Below are positions 1 to 5,704 of a stretch of 5,704 nucleotides of DNA, piece by piece. This DNA comes from a virus (taxonomy: Duplodnaviria > Heunggongvirae > Uroviricota > Caudoviricetes). The stretch's first letter is position 1; every line of letters begins with the position of its first letter. The DNA lies in the IMG/VR virus record IMGVR_UViG_2602041568_000013. One strand, written 5' to 3'. Made by a program: the position numbers and the translations under genes. The notes under the pieces were generated by a model, which saw only the letters and a program-made list of their open reading frames with translations, made no database searches and was not told the DNA's origin.

Positions 1-216
1 TCTGAACATAAAACACTATCAGTAAGTTGGAGTCATTACCCGCCATTAAAATAGTGGACACTGATGAATACTCATTGTGCTTTCTTTGTTTAACATCTCC
101 ATGCTTATCCTCCTGAACATGTTCATCTGCCAAAATATCTTCTAATACTTTTCGTGACGCTATCCGGTTTATGACATACACTGATGTAAGATTTTTACTT
201 ACAGGAGAGCATAAAC

Positions 217-468
217 ATGGCCAGAACGATGACGGTTGATCTCGGCGATGAGTTGCGTGAATTTATCGAGTCCTTAATTGAATCCGGCGACTATCGCACC
301 CAAAGCGAAGTGATCCGTGAGTCACTGCGCTTACTTCGAGAAAAGCAAGCAGAGTCTCGCCTGCAAGCGTTACGTGACATGCTTGCAGAAGGGTTGAGTA
401 GTGGTGAAGCTCAGCCGTGGGAAAAGGACGCGTTTTTACGGAAGGTGAAAGCAGGGATAAGGAAATAA
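217..468 (+). CDS. ParD-family (ribbon-helix-helix) type II antitoxin, 83 aa
   Basis: Seen: ATG at 217 preceded by AGGAGAG (203-209); 83-aa ORF ending TAA 466-468. N-terminal region (TVDLGDELREFIESLIESGDYRTQSEVIRESLRLLRE) has the RHH/ParD-like pattern as I recall it; stop is 1 nt before the start of the downstream toxin-like ORF. Family assignment is from memory of ParD-like antitoxins, not a search. Confidence 0.8.
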   Translation: MARTMTVDLGDELREFIESLIESGDYRTQSEVIRESLRLLREKQAESRLQALRDMLAEGLSSGEAQPWEKDAFLRKVKAGIRK

Positions 469-469
469 T

Positions 470-766
470 GTGCGTATTATTAAACTCATGCCAAAAGCCA
501 ATGAGGATTTAGAAGGCATCTGGTATTACAGTTATCACCATTTCGGCGAACCACAAGCCGACAGATATGTGGAACATCTTTCAGACGTTCTCCAGATTCT
601 GAGTAACAATAATATAGGTACGCCCAGACCTGAATTAGGCGAAGGTATTTTTGTTCTTCCTTTTGAACGCCACGTAATTTATTTCCTGCAATCACCAGGG
701 GAAATTATCGTCATTCGTATCCTTAACCAAAACCAGGACGCCACCAGACATTTACACTGGAGCTAA
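470..766 (+). CDS. ParE/RelE-superfamily type II toxin, 98 aa (GTG start)
   Basis: Seen: GTG at 470 with AGGAA 5-6 nt upstream, arranged TAA-T-GTG with the antitoxin stop. N-terminus IKLMPKANEDLEGIWYYSYHHFGEPQADRYVEHL fits the ParE signature (x-L-x3-A-x2-DL-x2-IW-Y...G...QA-RY) as I recall it. The alternative ATG at 488 would cut into this conserved N-terminal segment, so GTG is preferred. Confidence 0.8.
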   Translation: MRIIKLMPKANEDLEGIWYYSYHHFGEPQADRYVEHLSDVLQILSNNNIGTPRPELGEGIFVLPFERHVIYFLQSPGEIIVIRILNQNQDATRHLHWS

Positions 767-868
767 ACCCGCCGATTGCGCTACAATGCCCGCCCTTAAA
801 GTGGGGGCACTCCCCTAACCGCTTCATCAGGTGAAGCGGATCTGACCTGTCATCAGAACGAGAGAATT

Positions 869-2230
869 ATGTTTAAACCGGAACTCCTTTCCCCGGCGGG
901 AACGCTGAAAAATATGCGTTACGCTTTCGCTTATGGCGCAGATGCTGTTTATGCGGGCCAGCCGCGTTACTCCCTGCGTGTGCGCAACAACGAATTCAAC
1001 CACGAAAACCTTCAGCTCGGCATCAATGAAGCCCACGCGCTGGGGAAAAAGTTTTATGTCGTGGTCAACATTGCCCCGCACAACGCCAAGCTGAAAACCT
1101 TTATCCGTGACCTGAAACCGGTGGTGGAAATGGGGCCGGATGCGCTGATTATGTCCGATCCAGGGCTGATTATGCTGGTGCGTGAGCACTTCCCTGAAAT
1201 GCCGATCCACCTCTCGGTGCAGGCTAACGCCGTAAACTGGGCGACGGTGAAATTCTGGCAGCAAATGGGCCTGACCCGCGTGATCCTCTCTCGCGAGCTG
1301 TCGCTGGAAGAGATTGAAGAGATCCGCAATCAGGTGCCGGATATGGAGATCGAGATCTTCGTTCACGGCGCACTGTGCATGGCCTACTCCGGTCGCTGCC
1401 TGCTCTCTGGCTATATCAACAAGCGCGATCCGAACCAGGGTACCTGCACCAACGCCTGCCGCTGGGAGTACAACGTCCAGGAAGGGAAAGAAGATGACGT
1501 TGGCAACATCGTACACAAGTACGAGCCGATTCCGGTGCAAAATGTTGAGCCGACGCTGGGTATCGGCGCGCCAACCGACAAAGTGTTTATGATCGAAGAA
1601 GCCCAGCGTCCGGGCGAGTATATGACCGCGTTTGAAGATGAGCACGGCACTTACATCATGAACTCGAAAGATCTGCGCGCCATCGCCCATGTAGAACGCC
1701 TGACCAAAATGGGCGTGCATTCGCTGAAAATCGAAGGCCGTACTAAATCTTTCTACTATTGCGCACGCACCGCACAGGTTTATCGTAAAGCTATCGATGA
1801 TGCCGCTGCGGGCAAACCGTTCGATACCAGCCTGCTGGAAACTCTGGAAGGTCTGGCGCATCGTGGCTATACCGAAGGTTTCCTGCGTCGTCATACTCAC
1901 GACGATTATCAGAACTACGAATACGGTTATTCAGTTTCTGACCGCCAGCAGTTTGTTGGTGAGTTTACCGGTGAGCGCAAGGGGGACCTCGCGGCGGTAG
2001 CGGTGAAAAATAAATTCTCCGTTGGCGACAGCCTTGAGCTGATGACGCCGCAAGGCAACATTAACTTTACCCTTGAGCACATGGAAAACGCCAAAGGCGA
2101 AGCTATGCCGGTAGCACCAGGCGATGGTTATACTGTGTGGCTCCCGGTGCCGCAGGATCTTGAGCTAAATTACGCGCTGCTGATGCGTAATTTCTCCGGG
2201 GAAACCACGCGTAACCCACACGGTAAGTGA
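869..2230 (+). CDS. yegQ: U32-family peptidase-like protein YegQ (TrhP; reported role in prephenate-dependent tRNA U34 hydroxylation), 453 aa
   Basis: Seen: 453-aa ORF, ATG 869, TGA 2228-2230, N-terminus MFKPELLSPAGTLKNM typical of U32 family and Cys-rich motif CMAYSGRCLLSGY...CTNACRW. Matches my recollection of E. coli YegQ; the K-12 order yegQ-cyaR-ogrK is consistent with what follows. Confidence 0.93.
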   Translation: MFKPELLSPAGTLKNMRYAFAYGADAVYAGQPRYSLRVRNNEFNHENLQLGINEAHALGKKFYVVVNIAPHNAKLKTFIRDLKPVVEMGPDALIMSDPGLIMLVREHFPEMPIHLSVQANAVNWATVKFWQQMGLTRVILSRELSLEEIEEIRNQVPDMEIEIFVHGALCMAYSGRCLLSGYINKRDPNQGTCTNACRWEYNVQEGKEDDVGNIVHKYEPIPVQNVEPTLGIGAPTDKVFMIEEAQRPGEYMTAFEDEHGTYIMNSKDLRAIAHVERLTKMGVHSLKIEGRTKSFYYCARTAQVYRKAIDDAAAGKPFDTSLLETLEGLAHRGYTEGFLRRHTHDDYQNYEYGYSVSDRQQFVGEFTGERKGDLAAVAVKNKFSVGDSLELMTPQGNINFTLEHMENAKGEAMPVAPGDGYTVWLPVPQDLELNYALLMRNFSGETTRNPHGK

Positions 2231-2261
2231 TTAATTTCGATTATTTTTCCCGGATGGAAAA

Positions 2262-2307
2262 TTCTTAGAAACCGATCACATACAGCTGCATTTATTAAGG
2301 TTATCAT
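2262..2307 (+). promoter_or_regulatory. cyaR promoter region: candidate CRP site plus -10 element
   Basis: Seen: 22-bp window 2262-2283 (ttcttagaaaccgatcacatac) with a perfect TCACA right half (2276-2280) and a weak left half, centred about -42.5 from the inferred start at 2315; -10-like TATCAT at 2302-2307 with a poor -35. This fits a class II CRP-activated promoter, which is how cyaR is described. Inference; no experimental start site available. Confidence 0.4.
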
Positions 2308-2314
2308 CCGTTTC

Positions 2315-2401
2315 GCTGAAAAACATAACCCATAAAATGCTAGCTGTACCAGGAACCACCTCCTTAGCCTGTGTAATCTCCCTTACACGGGCTTATTTTT
2401 T
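2315..2401 (+). ncRNA. cyaR: CyaR (RyeE) Hfq-dependent small RNA, about 87 nt
   Basis: Seen: sequence starting GCTGAAAAACATAACCCATAAAATGC..., containing the C-rich CCACCTCCTTA motif, ending in a 10-bp hairpin (2367-2376 / 2383-2392, one G-U pair) plus U-run TTATTTTTT (2393-2401). Matches my memory of E. coli CyaR located between yegQ and ogrK. Ends are approximate (a few nt). Confidence 0.8.
2375..2401. other. P2-type attachment-site core (27 bp), chromosome/prophage junction
   Basis: Seen: aatctcccttacacgggcttatttttt, whose reverse complement AAAAAATAAGCCCGTGTAAGGGAGATT equals the 27-nt P2 att core as I recall it. It overlaps the 3' half of the cyaR terminator and lies directly beside ogr, the gene at the end of an integrated P2 genome. 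Confidence 0.7.
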
Positions 2402-2463
2402 ACGTACAACAAATTGAAATAAAAGGATTTATTTCTGGTCACGTCCACACATTGACCACATCG

Positions 2464-2499
2464 ACAAAAAAAGCCCCTCGACTGAGGGGCTTTCTGTTT
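2464..2499. terminator. bidirectional intrinsic terminator (3' end of ogr; possible backstop for + strand transcription)
   Basis: Seen: perfect 7-bp GC-rich stem GCCCCTC (2473-2479) / GAGGGGC (2484-2490) with 4-nt loop, flanked by an A-run (2465-2472; U-run on the minus-strand transcript, just downstream of the ogr stop at 2504) and TTTCTGTTT (2491-2499) on the + strand. Confidence 0.7.
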
Positions 2500-2503
2500 G
2501 TAA

Positions 2504-2722
2504 TTACATCCACATAATTTGCTGCCCTGACGGCAACGGGTGCGGCCTCACGGCGTGGACTTCTCCCGGCTTCACGATGTATCGCTGTACCGACTCATAA
2601 GTGATGAACGTGGCGCTGCAATTCACGTTCTGGCACTGGTGATAACGCTCTTTTGTCGTGTCAGTGATATAGCGGCTTGTACGCGCATGTGCGGCATGCT
2701 GGCATAAAGGACAATGAAACAT
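2504..2722 (-). CDS. ogr: Ogr, P2 late-gene transcriptional activator (Cys4 zinc-finger), 72 aa
   Basis: Seen: 72-aa frame MFHCPLCQHAAHARTSRYITDTTKERYHQCQNVNCSATF... with CxxC...CxxxxC and GGAAGAGGTG ribosome-binding site upstream of ATG 2720-2722. The ORF track extends the frame to 2785 (93 aa); the 72-aa start is chosen because it matches canonical Ogr length and has the RBS. Confidence 0.9.
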   Translation of the reverse strand: MFHCPLCQHAAHARTSRYITDTTKERYHQCQNVNCSATFITYESVQRYIVKPGEVHAVRPHPLPSGQQIMWM

Positions 2723-2756
2723 CGCGAGCACCTCTTCCGGTTTTGTTGATGGTGCC

Positions 2757-2785
2757 ATTTTAGTTAATTTATCCTTATAAAACAA
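2757..2785 (-). promoter_or_regulatory. candidate sigma70 promoter for ogr
   Basis: Seen on minus strand: TTGTTT (2780-2785) - 17-nt spacer - TAAAAT (2757-2762), about 35 nt upstream of the ogr ATG. Inference from motif spacing only. Confidence 0.3.
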
Positions 2786-2803
2786 ACAGATAAAATAAAA
2801 ACA

Positions 2804-3967
2804 TTACTCATCATCTTCTGTTTCGTACTCCATATCAGAAAGCCTGACCTCAAGCTCCAAGGACGTCGTGAAGCCGCTATTATTCAGAAAATGTGTCACC
2901 TTAGTGATTGTCCAGTCCTGCTCGTCTATGACGCGCTTAAAGCCTGACACTCTGACCGGTGTTTCCGTGTAAATATCAGCACGACCAGTGGCAAGGCTGA
3001 TGGAGAACTCCGCAACGCCCCGTTGCAGTTTATCCCACTTCGCCTGAGCGGCGCGCATGGCCTGTGCTTTCGTGGCATATACCGTAGTCAGGGCAAAAAC
3101 GTTGTCAGCTTCACCGGCCATGTATTCACCTTCGCGCGCTTCCGGTACTTTTGGCGCTTTCTTCTGCCTGACCGGTTTCGCTTTCGGGTGCTCCAGTGCG
3201 CGCAGGTGTTTTTCTTTCTTTTTGCGTTTCAGTTTTACCTTCTGCTTTTGCGGCTTCGGGTCTTTGGTGTGTAACCACTTTGCCGTTACGCCGGTGTAGG
3301 CTCCACGGTCAGCAATCGCAAAATGATGGCGGTCACCGTCGCTGCGGGTGATGGTGACCTGCGGGATTTTTTTACCGCTGGCCGTCACTCCCTGCCCCGC
3401 TTTGAGAAACAGCAGTTTTCCCATTTTTACCGACACCTCACCGCCGTTGCGTTCTGCAAGACGGGTCAGAAATTTCGCATCAGACTCCTGCGACTGGTCG
3501 ATGTGCGGGATTTTAATTCCGGCCAGTGACGGAGCGACACTGGCTTCCAGCCTGTTACGGGAGGCTATCGCCTCAACAATCGCACCGAGCGTGGTGTCAT
3601 GCCATGAGCCTTCACGGCGGGAATTGAGCGTCCCGCGAAAATCTGCACTCCGTGCGCGGATGGTGACCACATCCGGTGCGCCCCGGTGTTCAACCTCATC
3701 AACGGTAAATTTCCCTTTGCATACCAGGGCAAAACCTTTCCAGCCGATATACACCGTCAGGACAGCGCCACGAATCGGTAGTCCGACCTGCCCGTCGGCA
3801 TCGTTCAGTTCAATATCAAGCTGGTCAGCCTCAAAGCCCCGGTTATCCGTCAGGGTCATGCTCATCAGACGGTCGCTGATATTGCCGGTAATATCCCTGC
3901 TGTCGAGTATCAGCATGTAATCCGGCGTCAGCGTACTGCCTGCATCAAATGTCAGTGCATCCAGCAT
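2804..3967 (-). CDS. D: P2 gpD-like tail protein (phage late control D family), 387 aa
   Basis: Seen: 387-aa ORF MLDALTFDAGSTLTPDYMLILDSRD...; length and N-terminus match my recollection of P2 gpD; position between U and ogr matches the P2 order T-U-D-ogr. Start ATG (3965-3967) overlaps the U stop. Confidence 0.93.
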   Translation of the reverse strand: MLDALTFDAGSTLTPDYMLILDSRDITGNISDRLMSMTLTDNRGFEADQLDIELNDADGQVGLPIRGAVLTVYIGWKGFALVCKGKFTVDEVEHRGAPDVVTIRARSADFRGTLNSRREGSWHDTTLGAIVEAIASRNRLEASVAPSLAGIKIPHIDQSQESDAKFLTRLAERNGGEVSVKMGKLLFLKAGQGVTASGKKIPQVTITRSDGDRHHFAIADRGAYTGVTAKWLHTKDPKPQKQKVKLKRKKKEKHLRALEHPKAKPVRQKKAPKVPEAREGEYMAGEADNVFALTTVYATKAQAMRAAQAKWDKLQRGVAEFSISLATGRADIYTETPVRVSGFKRVIDEQDWTITKVTHFLNNSGFTTSLELEVRLSDMEYETEDDE

Positions 3968-4446
3968 TATCCCGCCCCCGTCATACCCGTGAATTTAGTC
4001 GCCATACTGCCAGCCTTACCGATGAGCGATTCCGCCTGTTTACCGATATCGCCATAAAGCGCGGCCAGTGATTCATCAACGCGGGTGAGCGACAGCGTAA
4101 AATCAATTTTCCGGGGTGTGCCGTCTGCAAAGAAAATACTCCCTGTTTCACTCACCCTGCTGATGACATACATGCCGTAAATCATGCCGGTGCCATCCAG
4201 CAACGGCCACGCCCGCCCCTCCTCTGCCATCAGCCTGAGCGTGGTCATCGTCAGCTTGCCGCCGGTCAGTTCGGGATAAAGCACACCGGCAAGCGTGATG
4301 TTTTCCTCACCCACACCGAGAAACTGAAAAGCGTCCCGTTTACCGATACGGGAATTTGACGGCCAGCGATAATCTGATTCACGCTGCATGGTCTGGTGTG
4401 GCAGCGTCTGGCGCATAAAAACAAACATACCTAACGCGAGCATCAT
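3967..4446 (-). CDS. U: P2 gpU-like tail protein, 159 aa
   Basis: Seen: 159-aa ORF MMLALGMFVFMRQTLPHQ... with GGAGGTGA RBS upstream; length matches P2 gpU as recalled; stop TAA 3967-3969 overlaps the D start (TAATG). Confidence 0.92.
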   Translation of the reverse strand: MMLALGMFVFMRQTLPHQTMQRESDYRWPSNSRIGKRDAFQFLGVGEENITLAGVLYPELTGGKLTMTTLRLMAEEGRAWPLLDGTGMIYGMYVISRVSETGSIFFADGTPRKIDFTLSLTRVDESLAALYGDIGKQAESLIGKAGSMATKFTGMTGAG

Positions 4447-4460
4447 TTTTCGTCACCTCC

Positions 4461-5660
4461 TTAACCGTCATGCATCATGCTGGCACGGGCGCGCGCACGT
4501 TTATCCCGCTCGTATTTTTCGAGCGCATCCTGTAACTGGCGGTCGAGCTGTGTCCCCGGCGCAGTACCACCCGTCAGGCTGATGTGATATTCGTTTTTAC
4601 TCTGGTCTACATAAGAGCGGCCAGCCGGTGCCGTGACCGGCTGATAAGCCTGATAACCTGCATAAGAGCTGGTCGCCGGAATATAACCACCGCTGCCATA
4701 CGTGGCGGCTTGAGTTCTGGCGGCGGTCTGGTCAAGTGTGTCTGACTCTTTGTTGATAACACCGAGTTTTTCCAGTACCCAGTCAATACCACTGCGCAGT
4801 TTGTTGAACGCATTAAGCGGCAGCATCAGCGCGTCAGCCAGTGCCTGCCCGAACATGACGCCCGTGTCACGGCAACGGTTCAGGGTGTCCTGGGTGGCTT
4901 TGACCGGGGCGATCAGGTTTTTAAACCACTGCCACGCGGCCTGTAACTTTTCACCCAGCCAGTCAAACACCGGTTTAAGTGGCGTGAACAGTTCCCCCAC
5001 CGGCGCAAATGCCGCTTTCAGCCCTTCCACCACACCGCCAAAGAATGCGCTGACAGGCTCCCAGTATTTACGGATAAGCAACGCCCCGGCGACAATTGCG
5101 GCCACCACGGCCACAACCGGCCAGCTAATCGCCCCGATGGCCGTCATAACAGCACTGCCAACCGTCGTGAAGATTGCCCCCATTGCGCCTGCTGCCGCGA
5201 TGATGGCATTGATGCCAGTGATAACCGGCCAGGCTACAAGACCAATGGCACCGATGATGCCAATAAGCGCCAGCGCGCCACCGGCAATGATGCCAATGGT
5301 TGACGCCAGTGATTTGTTTTTCTGTATCCAGCCGTCGAGTTTTAACACATACTTTGTGGCCGTCTGTGTGAGCTTACGCAGTGCGCCTTCCTGCTGGTCA
5401 AACAGGTCTGTCCCTACCGCCTCATAAGCGGACTGAAACTCCTTAAAGTCACCGCCGAGGTTGTCCTGCATGATATTTACCAGCTCGGCAGTCTTCCCGT
5501 CTGAGGCTTTAAACGCAGCGGTCAGTTTGTCCAGCTTTCCGGTTGAGGCGGCAGTCATCAGCACGGCGGCGGCTGAGCTGGCCTCCTCCCCGAAAATAGT
5601 TTTCATATATTCAGCCTGCTGGGCAGTACCGAGCCGGTTTTTCTCAAAGCTGGCCTGCAT
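4461..5660 (-). CDS. T: phage tail tape measure protein (gpT-like), 399-aa C-terminal reading frame; true 5' boundary unresolved
   Basis: Seen: long Gly/Ala/Ile-rich hydrophobic block (ORF residues about 118-195) typical of tape measure proteins; position immediately upstream of U; stop 14 nt before the U start. An in-frame TAG lies 9 codons upstream of the first ATG (5688-5690) while the other two minus frames are open to the window edge, so the gene may be frameshifted, truncated or genuinely short. Confidence 0.8.
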   Translation of the reverse strand: MQASFEKNRLGTAQQAEYMKTIFGEEASSAAAVLMTAASTGKLDKLTAAFKASDGKTAELVNIMQDNLGGDFKEFQSAYEAVGTDLFDQQEGALRKLTQTATKYVLKLDGWIQKNKSLASTIGIIAGGALALIGIIGAIGLVAWPVITGINAIIAAAGAMGAIFTTVGSAVMTAIGAISWPVVAVVAAIVAGALLIRKYWEPVSAFFGGVVEGLKAAFAPVGELFTPLKPVFDWLGEKLQAAWQWFKNLIAPVKATQDTLNRCRDTGVMFGQALADALMLPLNAFNKLRSGIDWVLEKLGVINKESDTLDQTAARTQAATYGSGGYIPATSSYAGYQAYQPVTAPAGRSYVDQSKNEYHISLTGGTAPGTQLDRQLQDALEKYERDKRARARASMMHDG

Positions 5661-5704
5661 TTTGAACCGCCCCGGGAATCCTGGAGACTAAACTCCCTGA
5701 GAAA

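What the first reader, a model, noticed from the sequence alone, without database searches (positions are those of the whole stretch)
2315..2401. Prophage junction lies inside the cyaR terminator: the P2 att core forms the 3' end of the sRNA
The 27-bp sequence at 2375-2401 matches the P2 attachment core as recalled, and it makes up the 3' arm of the CyaR terminator hairpin plus its U-tail. The sRNA 3' end is therefore a hybrid chromosome/phage sequence, with ogr-D-U-T following immediately. This fixes the exact right boundary of the prophage and means sequence differences in the phage-supplied core could alter CyaR termination or stability.
Basis: partly seen in the sequence, partly recalled or inferred. 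Interest (0 to 1): 0.45.

Follow-up and report, generated by a model that had tools for sequence, protein, structure and literature searches.

The report
P2 prophage junction inside cyaR terminator
A P2-type prophage sits at its classic E. coli attachment site, whose 27-bp core is the 3' end of the small RNA gene cyaR and is rebuilt base for base on integration; this is correct but ordinary and already described.

Summary
Rfam finds CyaR at 2313-2398 (100.7 bits, E 5.5e-20). The 27-mer at 2375-2401 equals the annotated attP core of phage P2 27/27, and homology to P2 starts exactly at 2375. To the left the sequence is chromosomal (yegQ, cyaR body). To the right come the P2 IHF site, P arm, ogr terminator, ogr, D, U and T, 97.1% identical to P2.

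One correction: the core covers the last 2 nt of the terminator's 5' arm, the loop, the whole 3' arm and the U-tail, not only the 3' arm and tail.

The core is identical in P2, K-12, unoccupied E. coli sites and every occupied junction I read. So the "hybrid" 3' end cannot be told from the native one, and this CyaR is 87/87 identical to K-12 CyaR.

About 13% of complete E. coli genomes (706 of 5426) carry the same arrangement and 84% have the empty site. A related lysogen has a second identical core 31,020 bp away, beside int. K-12's RefSeq record annotates a prophage remnant overlapping cyaR, and papers list cyaR/ryeE as a P2 site.

The window is a metagenome scaffold that ends in an IS3-family element interrupting gene T. 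The far prophage end cannot be checked, and the prophage is probably defective.

The parts
869..2230 (+). yegQ (trhP), the chromosomal gene upstream of cyaR
   Evidence: 453-aa ORF. Annotated yegQ/trhP in all matching E. coli genomes. Pfam Peptidase_U32 on the identical scaffold L012.
2315..2401 (+). cyaR (ryeE) sRNA gene, 87 nt, identical to K-12 cyaR
   Evidence: Rfam RF00112 at 2313-2398, 100.7 bits. Aligns column for column with K-12 cyaR b4438. 100% identical in 4821 of 5426 E. coli records.
2366..2393 (+). CyaR intrinsic terminator hairpin: 11-bp stem (one G-U pair) and 6-nt loop, followed by the tail UAUUUUUU at 2394-2401
   Evidence: Rfam structure line. MFE fold. Terminator scan. Inverted repeat I1. 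The isolated hairpin folds at -15.9 kcal/mol, z -6.4.
2375..2401 (.). 27-bp P2 att core (O), common to attP and attB; here it is the core of the ogr-side junction (P-O-B', attR in P2 terms)
   Evidence: Exact single match. Identical to the annotated P2 attP 24356-24382. Alignment A1 shows chromosome-type sequence to the left and P2-type sequence to the right.
2400..2433 (-). IHF binding site of P2 attP, placed by alignment to the P2 annotation
   Evidence: P2 feature 'IHF' 24324-24357 maps here. One substitution relative to P2 (C2415).
2437..2464 (-). P-arm Int binding site, with two TGTGG(T/A)C repeats on the - strand
   Evidence: P2 feature 'Int P arm' 24293-24320 maps here and is identical. 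The P2-type arm-repeat consensus is tgTGGaCa (PMC3448106).
2470..2493 (.). Hairpin terminator of the ogr transcript and F operon; its sequence also fits a terminator on the + strand
   Evidence: P2 feature 'rho-independent terminator for ogr transcript and F operon'. Terminator scan and inverted repeat I2.
2504..2722 (-). ogr, the late-gene activator (72 aa)
   Evidence: Translation. Aligns with P2 ogr. Pfam Ogr_Delta on the identical L012.
2804..3967 (-). gene D (tail protein, 387 aa)
   Evidence: ORF. P2 gpD. Pfam Phage_GPD.
3967..4446 (-). gene U (tail protein, 159 aa)
   Evidence: ORF. P2 gpU. Pfam Phage_P2_GpU.
4461..5662 (-). 3' part of gene T (tape measure), cut off by an insertion after 5662
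   Evidence: 97% identical to P2 T. Intact relatives have a 2448-bp T. Alignment A2 shows the divergence from intact T at 5663.
5663..5704 (+). End of an IS3-family insertion sequence; the scaffold breaks inside it
   Evidence: This stretch matches many places per E. coli genome and plasmids. In one such place it lies 13 bp upstream of an annotated IS3-family transposase. The same T::IS junction is seen in two independent assemblies, L012 and L013.

Best explanation
This is the ogr-side junction (P-O-B', attR) of a P2-type (Peduovirus) prophage integrated at P2's preferred E. coli site. The 27-bp core of that site is the 3' end of the CRP-dependent sRNA gene cyaR.

P2 Int is a tyrosine recombinase helped by IHF. 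It exchanges strands inside a core that is identical in attP and attB. The phage therefore carries its own copy of the end of cyaR: the loop, the 3' arm of the terminator and the U-tail. Integration duplicates the core. One copy stays joined to the cyaR body and rebuilds the gene exactly. The other copy ends up next to int, about 31 kb away.

The result is that CyaR in a lysogen has the same sequence as in a non-lysogen; only the DNA after the U-tail changes. The same logic applies to phages that integrate into the 3' ends of tRNA or tmRNA genes.

Shown here: the identity of the core, the exact switch points of homology, the empty site, and the second core in relatives. Inferred: that Int made this junction, and where inside the core the crossover fell.

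In this particular source the prophage also carries an IS3-family insertion in the tape-measure gene T, so it is probably defective.
For: - CyaR covariance-model hit at 100.7 bits.
- The core is exact and unique in the window and equals the annotated P2 attP.
- P2 homology runs 2375-5662 at 97.1% and ends at the last base of the attP feature.
- Alignment A1: to the left of 2375 the window matches K-12 and differs from P2; to the right of 2401 it matches P2.
- The empty site yegQ-cyaR-core-yegR is present in 4563 of 5426 complete E. coli genomes, with the same core.
- The occupied arrangement is present in 706 of 5426.
- Strain 89-3156 has two identical cores 31,020 bp apart, with a full P2 gene set between them and int ending 80 bp before the second core.
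- The E. ruysiae reference genome has cyaR-core-P arm and P' arm-core-host flank.
- K-12 RefSeq annotates cryptic prophage PR-X starting inside cyaR.
- Literature: ryeE is known to be targeted by phages (PMC3603311); 'cyaR RNA' is listed as a P2 insertion site in E. coli W, K-12 and B (PMC3032704); attB is identical to the attP core in P2-like phages (PMC3448106).
Against: No result contradicts this reading. There are three limits. The int-side junction of this very element cannot be seen, because the scaffold ends in an IS. The crossover point inside the core is not visible, because both parents are identical. The junction could have been inherited, or moved in by homologous recombination of a whole lysogenic locus, rather than made by a recent integration in this lineage.
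Confidence: 0.95

Rival explanations
1. The junction belongs to a short cryptic remnant, like K-12's ogr-D' (PR-X), and not to a near-full-length prophage. In that case no second core and no int exist in this genome.
For: K-12 keeps only ogr and a fragment of D between a full core and a truncated core. In the window, gene T is interrupted by an IS element at 5662/5663, and nothing beyond it is available.
Against: ogr, D, U and 1.2 kb of T are intact and 97% identical to P2, far more than in K-12. All 706 complete genomes with this arrangement match through to at least 5662. The three prophages read in full at this site (EC16, 89-3156, TR01) have complete P2 gene sets. A simple IS insertion does not delete flanking DNA.
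Confidence: 0.2
2. The phage-supplied part of the core changes CyaR. This is the first reader's functional suggestion: the lysogen would make an sRNA with altered termination, stability or Hfq binding.
For: The 3' arm and U-tail lie inside the core. The CyaR terminator is leaky in a plasmid assay, with 41% readthrough in a delta-hfq background (PMC9765468), so downstream context might matter. One genome of 5426 (O157:H7 TR01) does carry a foreign core at this junction, with a much weaker hairpin of -6.8 against -15.9 kcal/mol.
Against: In this window all 87 nt equal K-12 CyaR and the empty-site CyaR. The core is 27/27 identical in P2, K-12, empty sites and all 13 occupied junctions read. K-12, where E. 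coli CyaR was characterised, itself has the phage-type downstream context.
Confidence: 0.04
3. The 27-mer is only the conserved CyaR terminator, and the P2 genes lie next to it by chance or through a non-Int rearrangement.
For: The same 27-mer ends cyaR in Kluyvera and Enterobacter genomes that have no phage beside it.
Against: The 27-mer is also in free P2 phage DNA, between int and ogr, where it is annotated as the attP core and Int binding site. The homology switches fall exactly at its two edges. It flanks both ends of the prophage in relatives.
Confidence: 0.01

Closest known systems
Phage P2 attP / E. coli attB at cyaR (the preferred P2 site, locI in the older literature as I recall it), and the K-12 remnant PR-X (ogrK-yegZ)
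   Same: The same 27-bp core, the same host gene (cyaR downstream of yegQ), the same orientation, and the same P arm, IHF site, terminator and ogr next to the core.
   Different: Three sequence differences from P2 between the core and D, counted on the alignment, and a few from K-12. More of the prophage is kept than in K-12. There is an IS3-family insertion in T.
P2-like prophages at 'cyaR RNA' in E. coli W (Wphi2) and B (P2*B) (PMC3032704), and the 706 complete E. coli genomes with yegQ-cyaR-ogr-D-U-T
   Same: The same insertion site and gene order, at 97.8-98.5% identity over 5.6 kb.
   Different: None of the 5426 complete genomes has this T::IS junction.
Integration into the 3' ends of tRNA, tmRNA or other small RNA genes with restoration of the gene: phage 186 in tRNA-Ile, Fels-2 and SopE-phi in ssrA (PMC3448106), prophages at ryeB/sdsR in Salmonella (PMC3603311, PMC3333887), phiEf11 in ffs (PMC12540744)
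   Same: The phage attP carries a copy of the 3' end of a structured RNA gene, so the gene is rebuilt at one junction.
   Different: The target is an Hfq-dependent sRNA terminator, not a tRNA-like fold. The core is short (27 bp) and ends exactly with the U-tail.
W-phi / L-413C-type P2-like phages (for example P24A7b, 11W, pro483)
   Same: The same ogr-D-U-T module and the same P arm from window position 2415 onward.
   Different: A different core (…AGTCAGTTATTGGTGACATTTTTTG…) and a different integrase specificity. They do not normally sit at cyaR.

Membership tests
CyaR/RyeE sRNA (Rfam RF00112) | Covariance-model score above the gathering threshold over the full model | tested here: met
   100.7 bits against a threshold of 47, model positions 1-85, E 5.5e-20.
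CyaR/RyeE sRNA (Rfam RF00112) | Conserved position downstream of yegQ, on the same strand | tested here: met
   yegQ is at 869-2230 (+) and cyaR at 2315-2401 (+), as in K-12.
CyaR/RyeE sRNA (Rfam RF00112) | Rho-independent terminator with a U-tail (the Hfq-binding 3' end) | tested here: met
   11-bp stem at 2366-2393 followed by UAUUUUUU.
CyaR/RyeE sRNA (Rfam RF00112) | cAMP-CRP-dependent transcription, and expression as an RNA of about 87 nt | not testable with these tools
   Sequence only. The part of the upstream region I aligned, 2290-2314, is identical to K-12.
P2 attR (P-O-B') junction | 27-bp core identical to the P2 attP core | tested here: met
   27/27 identity with the AF063097 attP feature.
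P2 attR (P-O-B') junction | Host-type sequence on one side of the core, and the phage P arm with its IHF and Int arm sites on the other | tested here: met
   Alignment A1, with the P2 feature table.
P2 attR (P-O-B') junction | An unoccupied allele exists with one core joining the two host flanks | tested here: met
   4563 of 5426 genomes; locus L006 was read directly.
P2 attR (P-O-B') junction | A second direct copy of the core next to int at the other end of the same element | not testable with these tools
   The source scaffold is 5.7 kb and ends in an IS. The feature is met in relatives: 89-3156 with cores 31,020 bp apart, TR01, and E. ruysiae.
P2-like prophage (Peduovirus) | P2 late and tail genes ogr, D, U, T in P2 order with high identity | tested here: met
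   97.1% identity to P2 over 3288 bp; Pfam Ogr_Delta, Phage_GPD and Phage_P2_GpU.
P2-like prophage (Peduovirus) | A complete, inducible genome | tested here: inconclusive
   T is interrupted by an IS3-family element at 5662/5663. The rest of the element is not in the window.

The most novel reading that the evidence does not exclude
Transcription of cyaR, driven by cAMP-CRP, partly reads through its leaky terminator into attR. It would then cross the IHF and Int P-arm sites and run antisense towards ogr, unless it is stopped at the 2470-2493 hairpin. In lysogens the host's nutritional state would then influence prophage excision or late-gene control, or the phage-derived downstream context would alter CyaR 3' end formation. 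Nothing here tests this. It rests only on the convergent layout and on the 41% readthrough reported for the CyaR terminator in a plasmid assay (PMC9765468).
Probability: 0.04. Interest if true: 0.5.

Novelty: already known. Interest (0 to 1): 0.1.

Why it matters
The value is mainly for annotation. It sets the prophage boundary to the base: the core is 2375-2401 and the first phage-only base is 2402. It shows that cyaR is intact despite overlapping a prophage end. It also warns that the prophage is IS-disrupted and that the contig break is caused by a repeat. As biology it is a textbook case of a phage carrying the 3' end of its target RNA gene. It is seen in roughly one in eight complete E. 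coli genomes and is already in the K-12 annotation and the literature.

Tried and rejected
1. Finding the source genome so as to look for the second core. The gpD protein look-up showed that the window is identical to a 5726-bp ENA metagenome scaffold ending in an IS, and a Logan contig breaks at the same place. No complete E. coli genome has this T::IS junction. The test could therefore only be done on relatives.

2. Reading the primary papers: Wassarman 2001, De Lay and Gottesman 2009, Yu and Haggard-Ljungquist 1993. None is held in the library. I used secondary statements instead.

3. Locating the crossover point inside the core. This is impossible by sequence because the parents are identical. 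K-12's truncated second core (TACACGGGC…) and the TR01 switch after AAT are only hints, and they do not agree with each other.

4. The weak Rfam hits Phe_leader and isrJ at 2413-2519. They fall below the gathering scores and are explained by the ogr terminator hairpin, so I rejected them.

5. The sigma-70 promoter scan of 2200-2820 found nothing. That is uninformative for a CRP-dependent promoter.

Full report
**1. What is at 2315-2401**

A scan of the whole window against Rfam gives one significant hit. It is CyaR_RyeE (RF00112) at 2313-2398 on the + strand, 100.7 bits against a gathering score of 47, E 5.5e-20, over the full model. The other three hits are below threshold and fall on a phage terminator hairpin.

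The K-12 RefSeq record annotates cyaR (b4438) at 2167114-2167200. In an alignment this corresponds column for column to window 2315-2401. The 87-nt stretch is 100% identical in 4821 of 5426 E. coli records.

The predicted fold has the known shape:
- a small hairpin presenting ACCACCUCC at 2351-2364;
- a terminator hairpin with 5' arm 2366-2376, loop 2377-2382 and 3' arm 2383-2393;
- the tail UAUUUUUU at 2394-2401.

Searches agree with this structure. The terminator alone folds at -15.9 kcal/mol, z -6.4.

**2. The 27-mer**

AATCTCCCTTACACGGGCTTATTTTTT occurs once in the window, at 2375-2401, and in none of 200 shuffles. The GenBank record of phage P2 (AF063097) annotates exactly this 27-mer as 'attP' and as the Int core binding site. 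There it lies between int with its P' arm on one side and the IHF site, P arm, terminator and ogr on the other.

Megablast of the window against phage records starts to match P2 at 2375 precisely. The stretch 2375-5662 is 97.1% identical to P2 21096-24382, and that match ends on the last base of the attP feature.

A six-way alignment shows the switch. To the left of 2375 the window equals K-12 chromosome and is unrelated to P2. Across 2375-2401 all sequences are identical. To the right of 2401 the window equals P2.

The one correction is that the core covers the last two bases of the 5' arm, the loop, the whole 3' arm and the tail, not only the 3' arm and tail.

**3. The surroundings**

Upstream lie a parD/parE pair (217-766) and yegQ/trhP (869-2230).

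Downstream, by alignment to the P2 feature table, lie:
- the IHF site (2400-2433);
- the P-arm Int site (2437-2464), with two copies of the P2-type arm repeat tgTGGaCa on the - strand (consensus from PMC3448106);
- the ogr/F-operon terminator (2470-2493);
- ogr (2504-2722, 72 aa);
- D (2804-3967);
- U (3967-4446);
- the 3' 1.2 kb of T (4461-5662).

Pfam families recorded for the identical scaffold L012 agree: Ogr_Delta, Phage_GPD and Phage_P2_GpU. In P2 terms this is the P-O-B' junction (attR).

**4. Empty site, second core and frequency**

A composite of the two host flanks joined by one core was searched against the complete E. coli genomes. It is found contiguous in 4563 of 5426 of them. 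One example, BE2-5, was read directly and has the same core.

The occupied arrangement, yegQ-cyaR-ogr-D-U-T, covers at least 80% of the window in 706 of 5426 genomes.

In strain 89-3156 (98.2% identical to the window) the core occurs twice, 31,020 bp apart. A full P2 gene set lies between the copies. An integrase 99.4% identical to P2 Int ends 80 bp before the second copy.

The E. ruysiae reference genome has cyaR-core-P arm in one locus and P' arm-core-host flank in another. These are 32,494 bp apart across the contig ends, if the contig is circular.

All 13 occupied junctions I read have the exact core. Outside Escherichia and Shigella, the same 27-mer ends cyaR in Kluyvera species and in Enterobacter hormaechei.

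**5. How it works**

P2 Int is a tyrosine recombinase that binds a core and two arm sites, and attB is identical to the attP core (PMC3448106). Because attP contains a copy of the end of cyaR, integration duplicates that end. One copy stays attached to the cyaR body and restores the gene exactly. The other copy lies beside int.

The identity of the parental cores is shown here. That Int produced this junction, and where inside the 27 bp the strands were exchanged, is inferred. Since the parents are identical, no base can be assigned to phage or host.

The sRNA is unchanged, and only the DNA after the U-tail differs between lysogen (ACGTACAAC…) and empty site (ATGCATAAG…). K-12, the strain in which E. 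coli CyaR was characterised, already has the phage-type context.

**6. Comparison with what is known**

This is established.
- K-12's RefSeq record has a feature 'cryptic prophage PR-X' (2167183-2167811) that begins inside cyaR.
- Bobay et al. state that ryeE in E. coli was "previously known to be targeted by phages", citing Wassarman et al. 2001 (PMC3603311).
- The E. coli W genome paper lists 'cyaR RNA' as the insertion site of Wphi2 (P2) in W, ogr-D' in K-12 and P2*B in B (PMC3032704).

The original att papers are not in the library. My recollection that this site is P2's locI is therefore marked as memory only.

**7. Limits**

The window has zero mismatches to the reverse complement of an ENA metagenome scaffold of 5726 bp. 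From 5663 on it no longer matches gene T. Instead it matches the end of an IS3-family element that occurs many times per E. coli genome and on plasmids. An independent Logan contig has the same junction.

Both contigs stop inside the repeat. The int-side junction of this element therefore cannot be examined, and the tape-measure gene is disrupted, so the prophage is probably defective.

**8. Verdict**

The biology is ordinary and already described.

Noticed in passing
window 5663-5704 (junction at 5662/5663): An IS3-family insertion sequence end (TGAACCGCCCCGGGAATCCTGGAGACTAAACTCCCTGAGAAA; from memory it resembles IS629/IS1203) interrupts P2 gene T. The same junction is in two independent assemblies (L012, L013) and in none of 5426 complete E. 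coli genomes. Both contigs end inside the IS.
   Followed up: yes
window 1-5704: The window is identical (0 mismatches) to the reverse complement of ENA metagenome scaffold ERZ28644738 VATA22-2 scaffold_2679 (5726 bp). The best complete E. coli genomes are only about 98% identical.
   Followed up: yes
window 217-468 and 470-766 (+): A ParD antitoxin / ParE toxin pair lies between yegP and yegQ. It is present in many E. coli strains but absent from K-12, where yegP is followed directly by trhP.
   Followed up: no
L006 603-670; L005 33477-33545; L003 (K-12) 3331-3400: 'Empty' E. coli cyaR attB sites carry a P-arm-like sequence right after the core (CTGGTCACCGTCTTCCATTGACCACATCGAT against P2 CTGGTCACGTCCACACATTGACCACATCGAC; one arm repeat is kept). 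A partial second core (AATCTCCCTTCA) follows, starting about 78 nt after the start of the full core. This looks like the scar of an ancient P2-like prophage. It is absent from the Kluyvera, Enterobacter and E. ruysiae flanks. Whether it helps Int at attB is unknown.
   Followed up: partly
L003 (K-12 NC_000913.3) 2675-2701 and 3313-3330: The K-12 remnant PR-X (ogrK-yegZ) is bounded by a full core and a truncated core, TACACGGGCTTATTTTTT. The annotated PR-X limits run from the first TACACGGG to just before the second. The deletion that made the remnant therefore ended inside the int-side core.
   Followed up: partly
L037 (E. coli O157:H7 TR01, NZ_CP033605.1) 100-200 and 32126-32152: This is the only genome of 5426 in which the cyaR body is joined, after core position 3 (AAT|), to a W-phi/P24A7b-type core (GTCAGTTATTGGTGACATTTTTTG) and P arm. 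The int-side junction has the normal P2 core and a P2 Int. The CyaR terminator is replaced by a weak hairpin (-6.8 against -15.9 kcal/mol). It may be a hybrid phage, an aberrant recombination or an assembly error.
   Followed up: partly
L016 5349-5470 (CP178308.1, labelled E. coli ECDA1023; its cyaR is Kluyvera-like): The exact P2 core at the cyaR 3' end is followed by a diverged P2-like P arm and terminator. P2-family phages therefore seem to use the cyaR site outside Escherichia as well.
   Followed up: no
L002 (GenBank AY639599, 'Phage TP'): This record, deposited as phage DNA, contains the cyaR body and a 'putative protease' that is the 3' part of yegQ, next to ogr. It is therefore a chromosomal lysogen or remnant junction and not virion DNA.
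   Followed up: partly
window 2470-2493: The ogr/F-operon terminator hairpin also reads as a terminator on the + strand (tail CTGTTTGT). It would be the first stop for any CyaR readthrough transcript entering the prophage.
   Followed up: no
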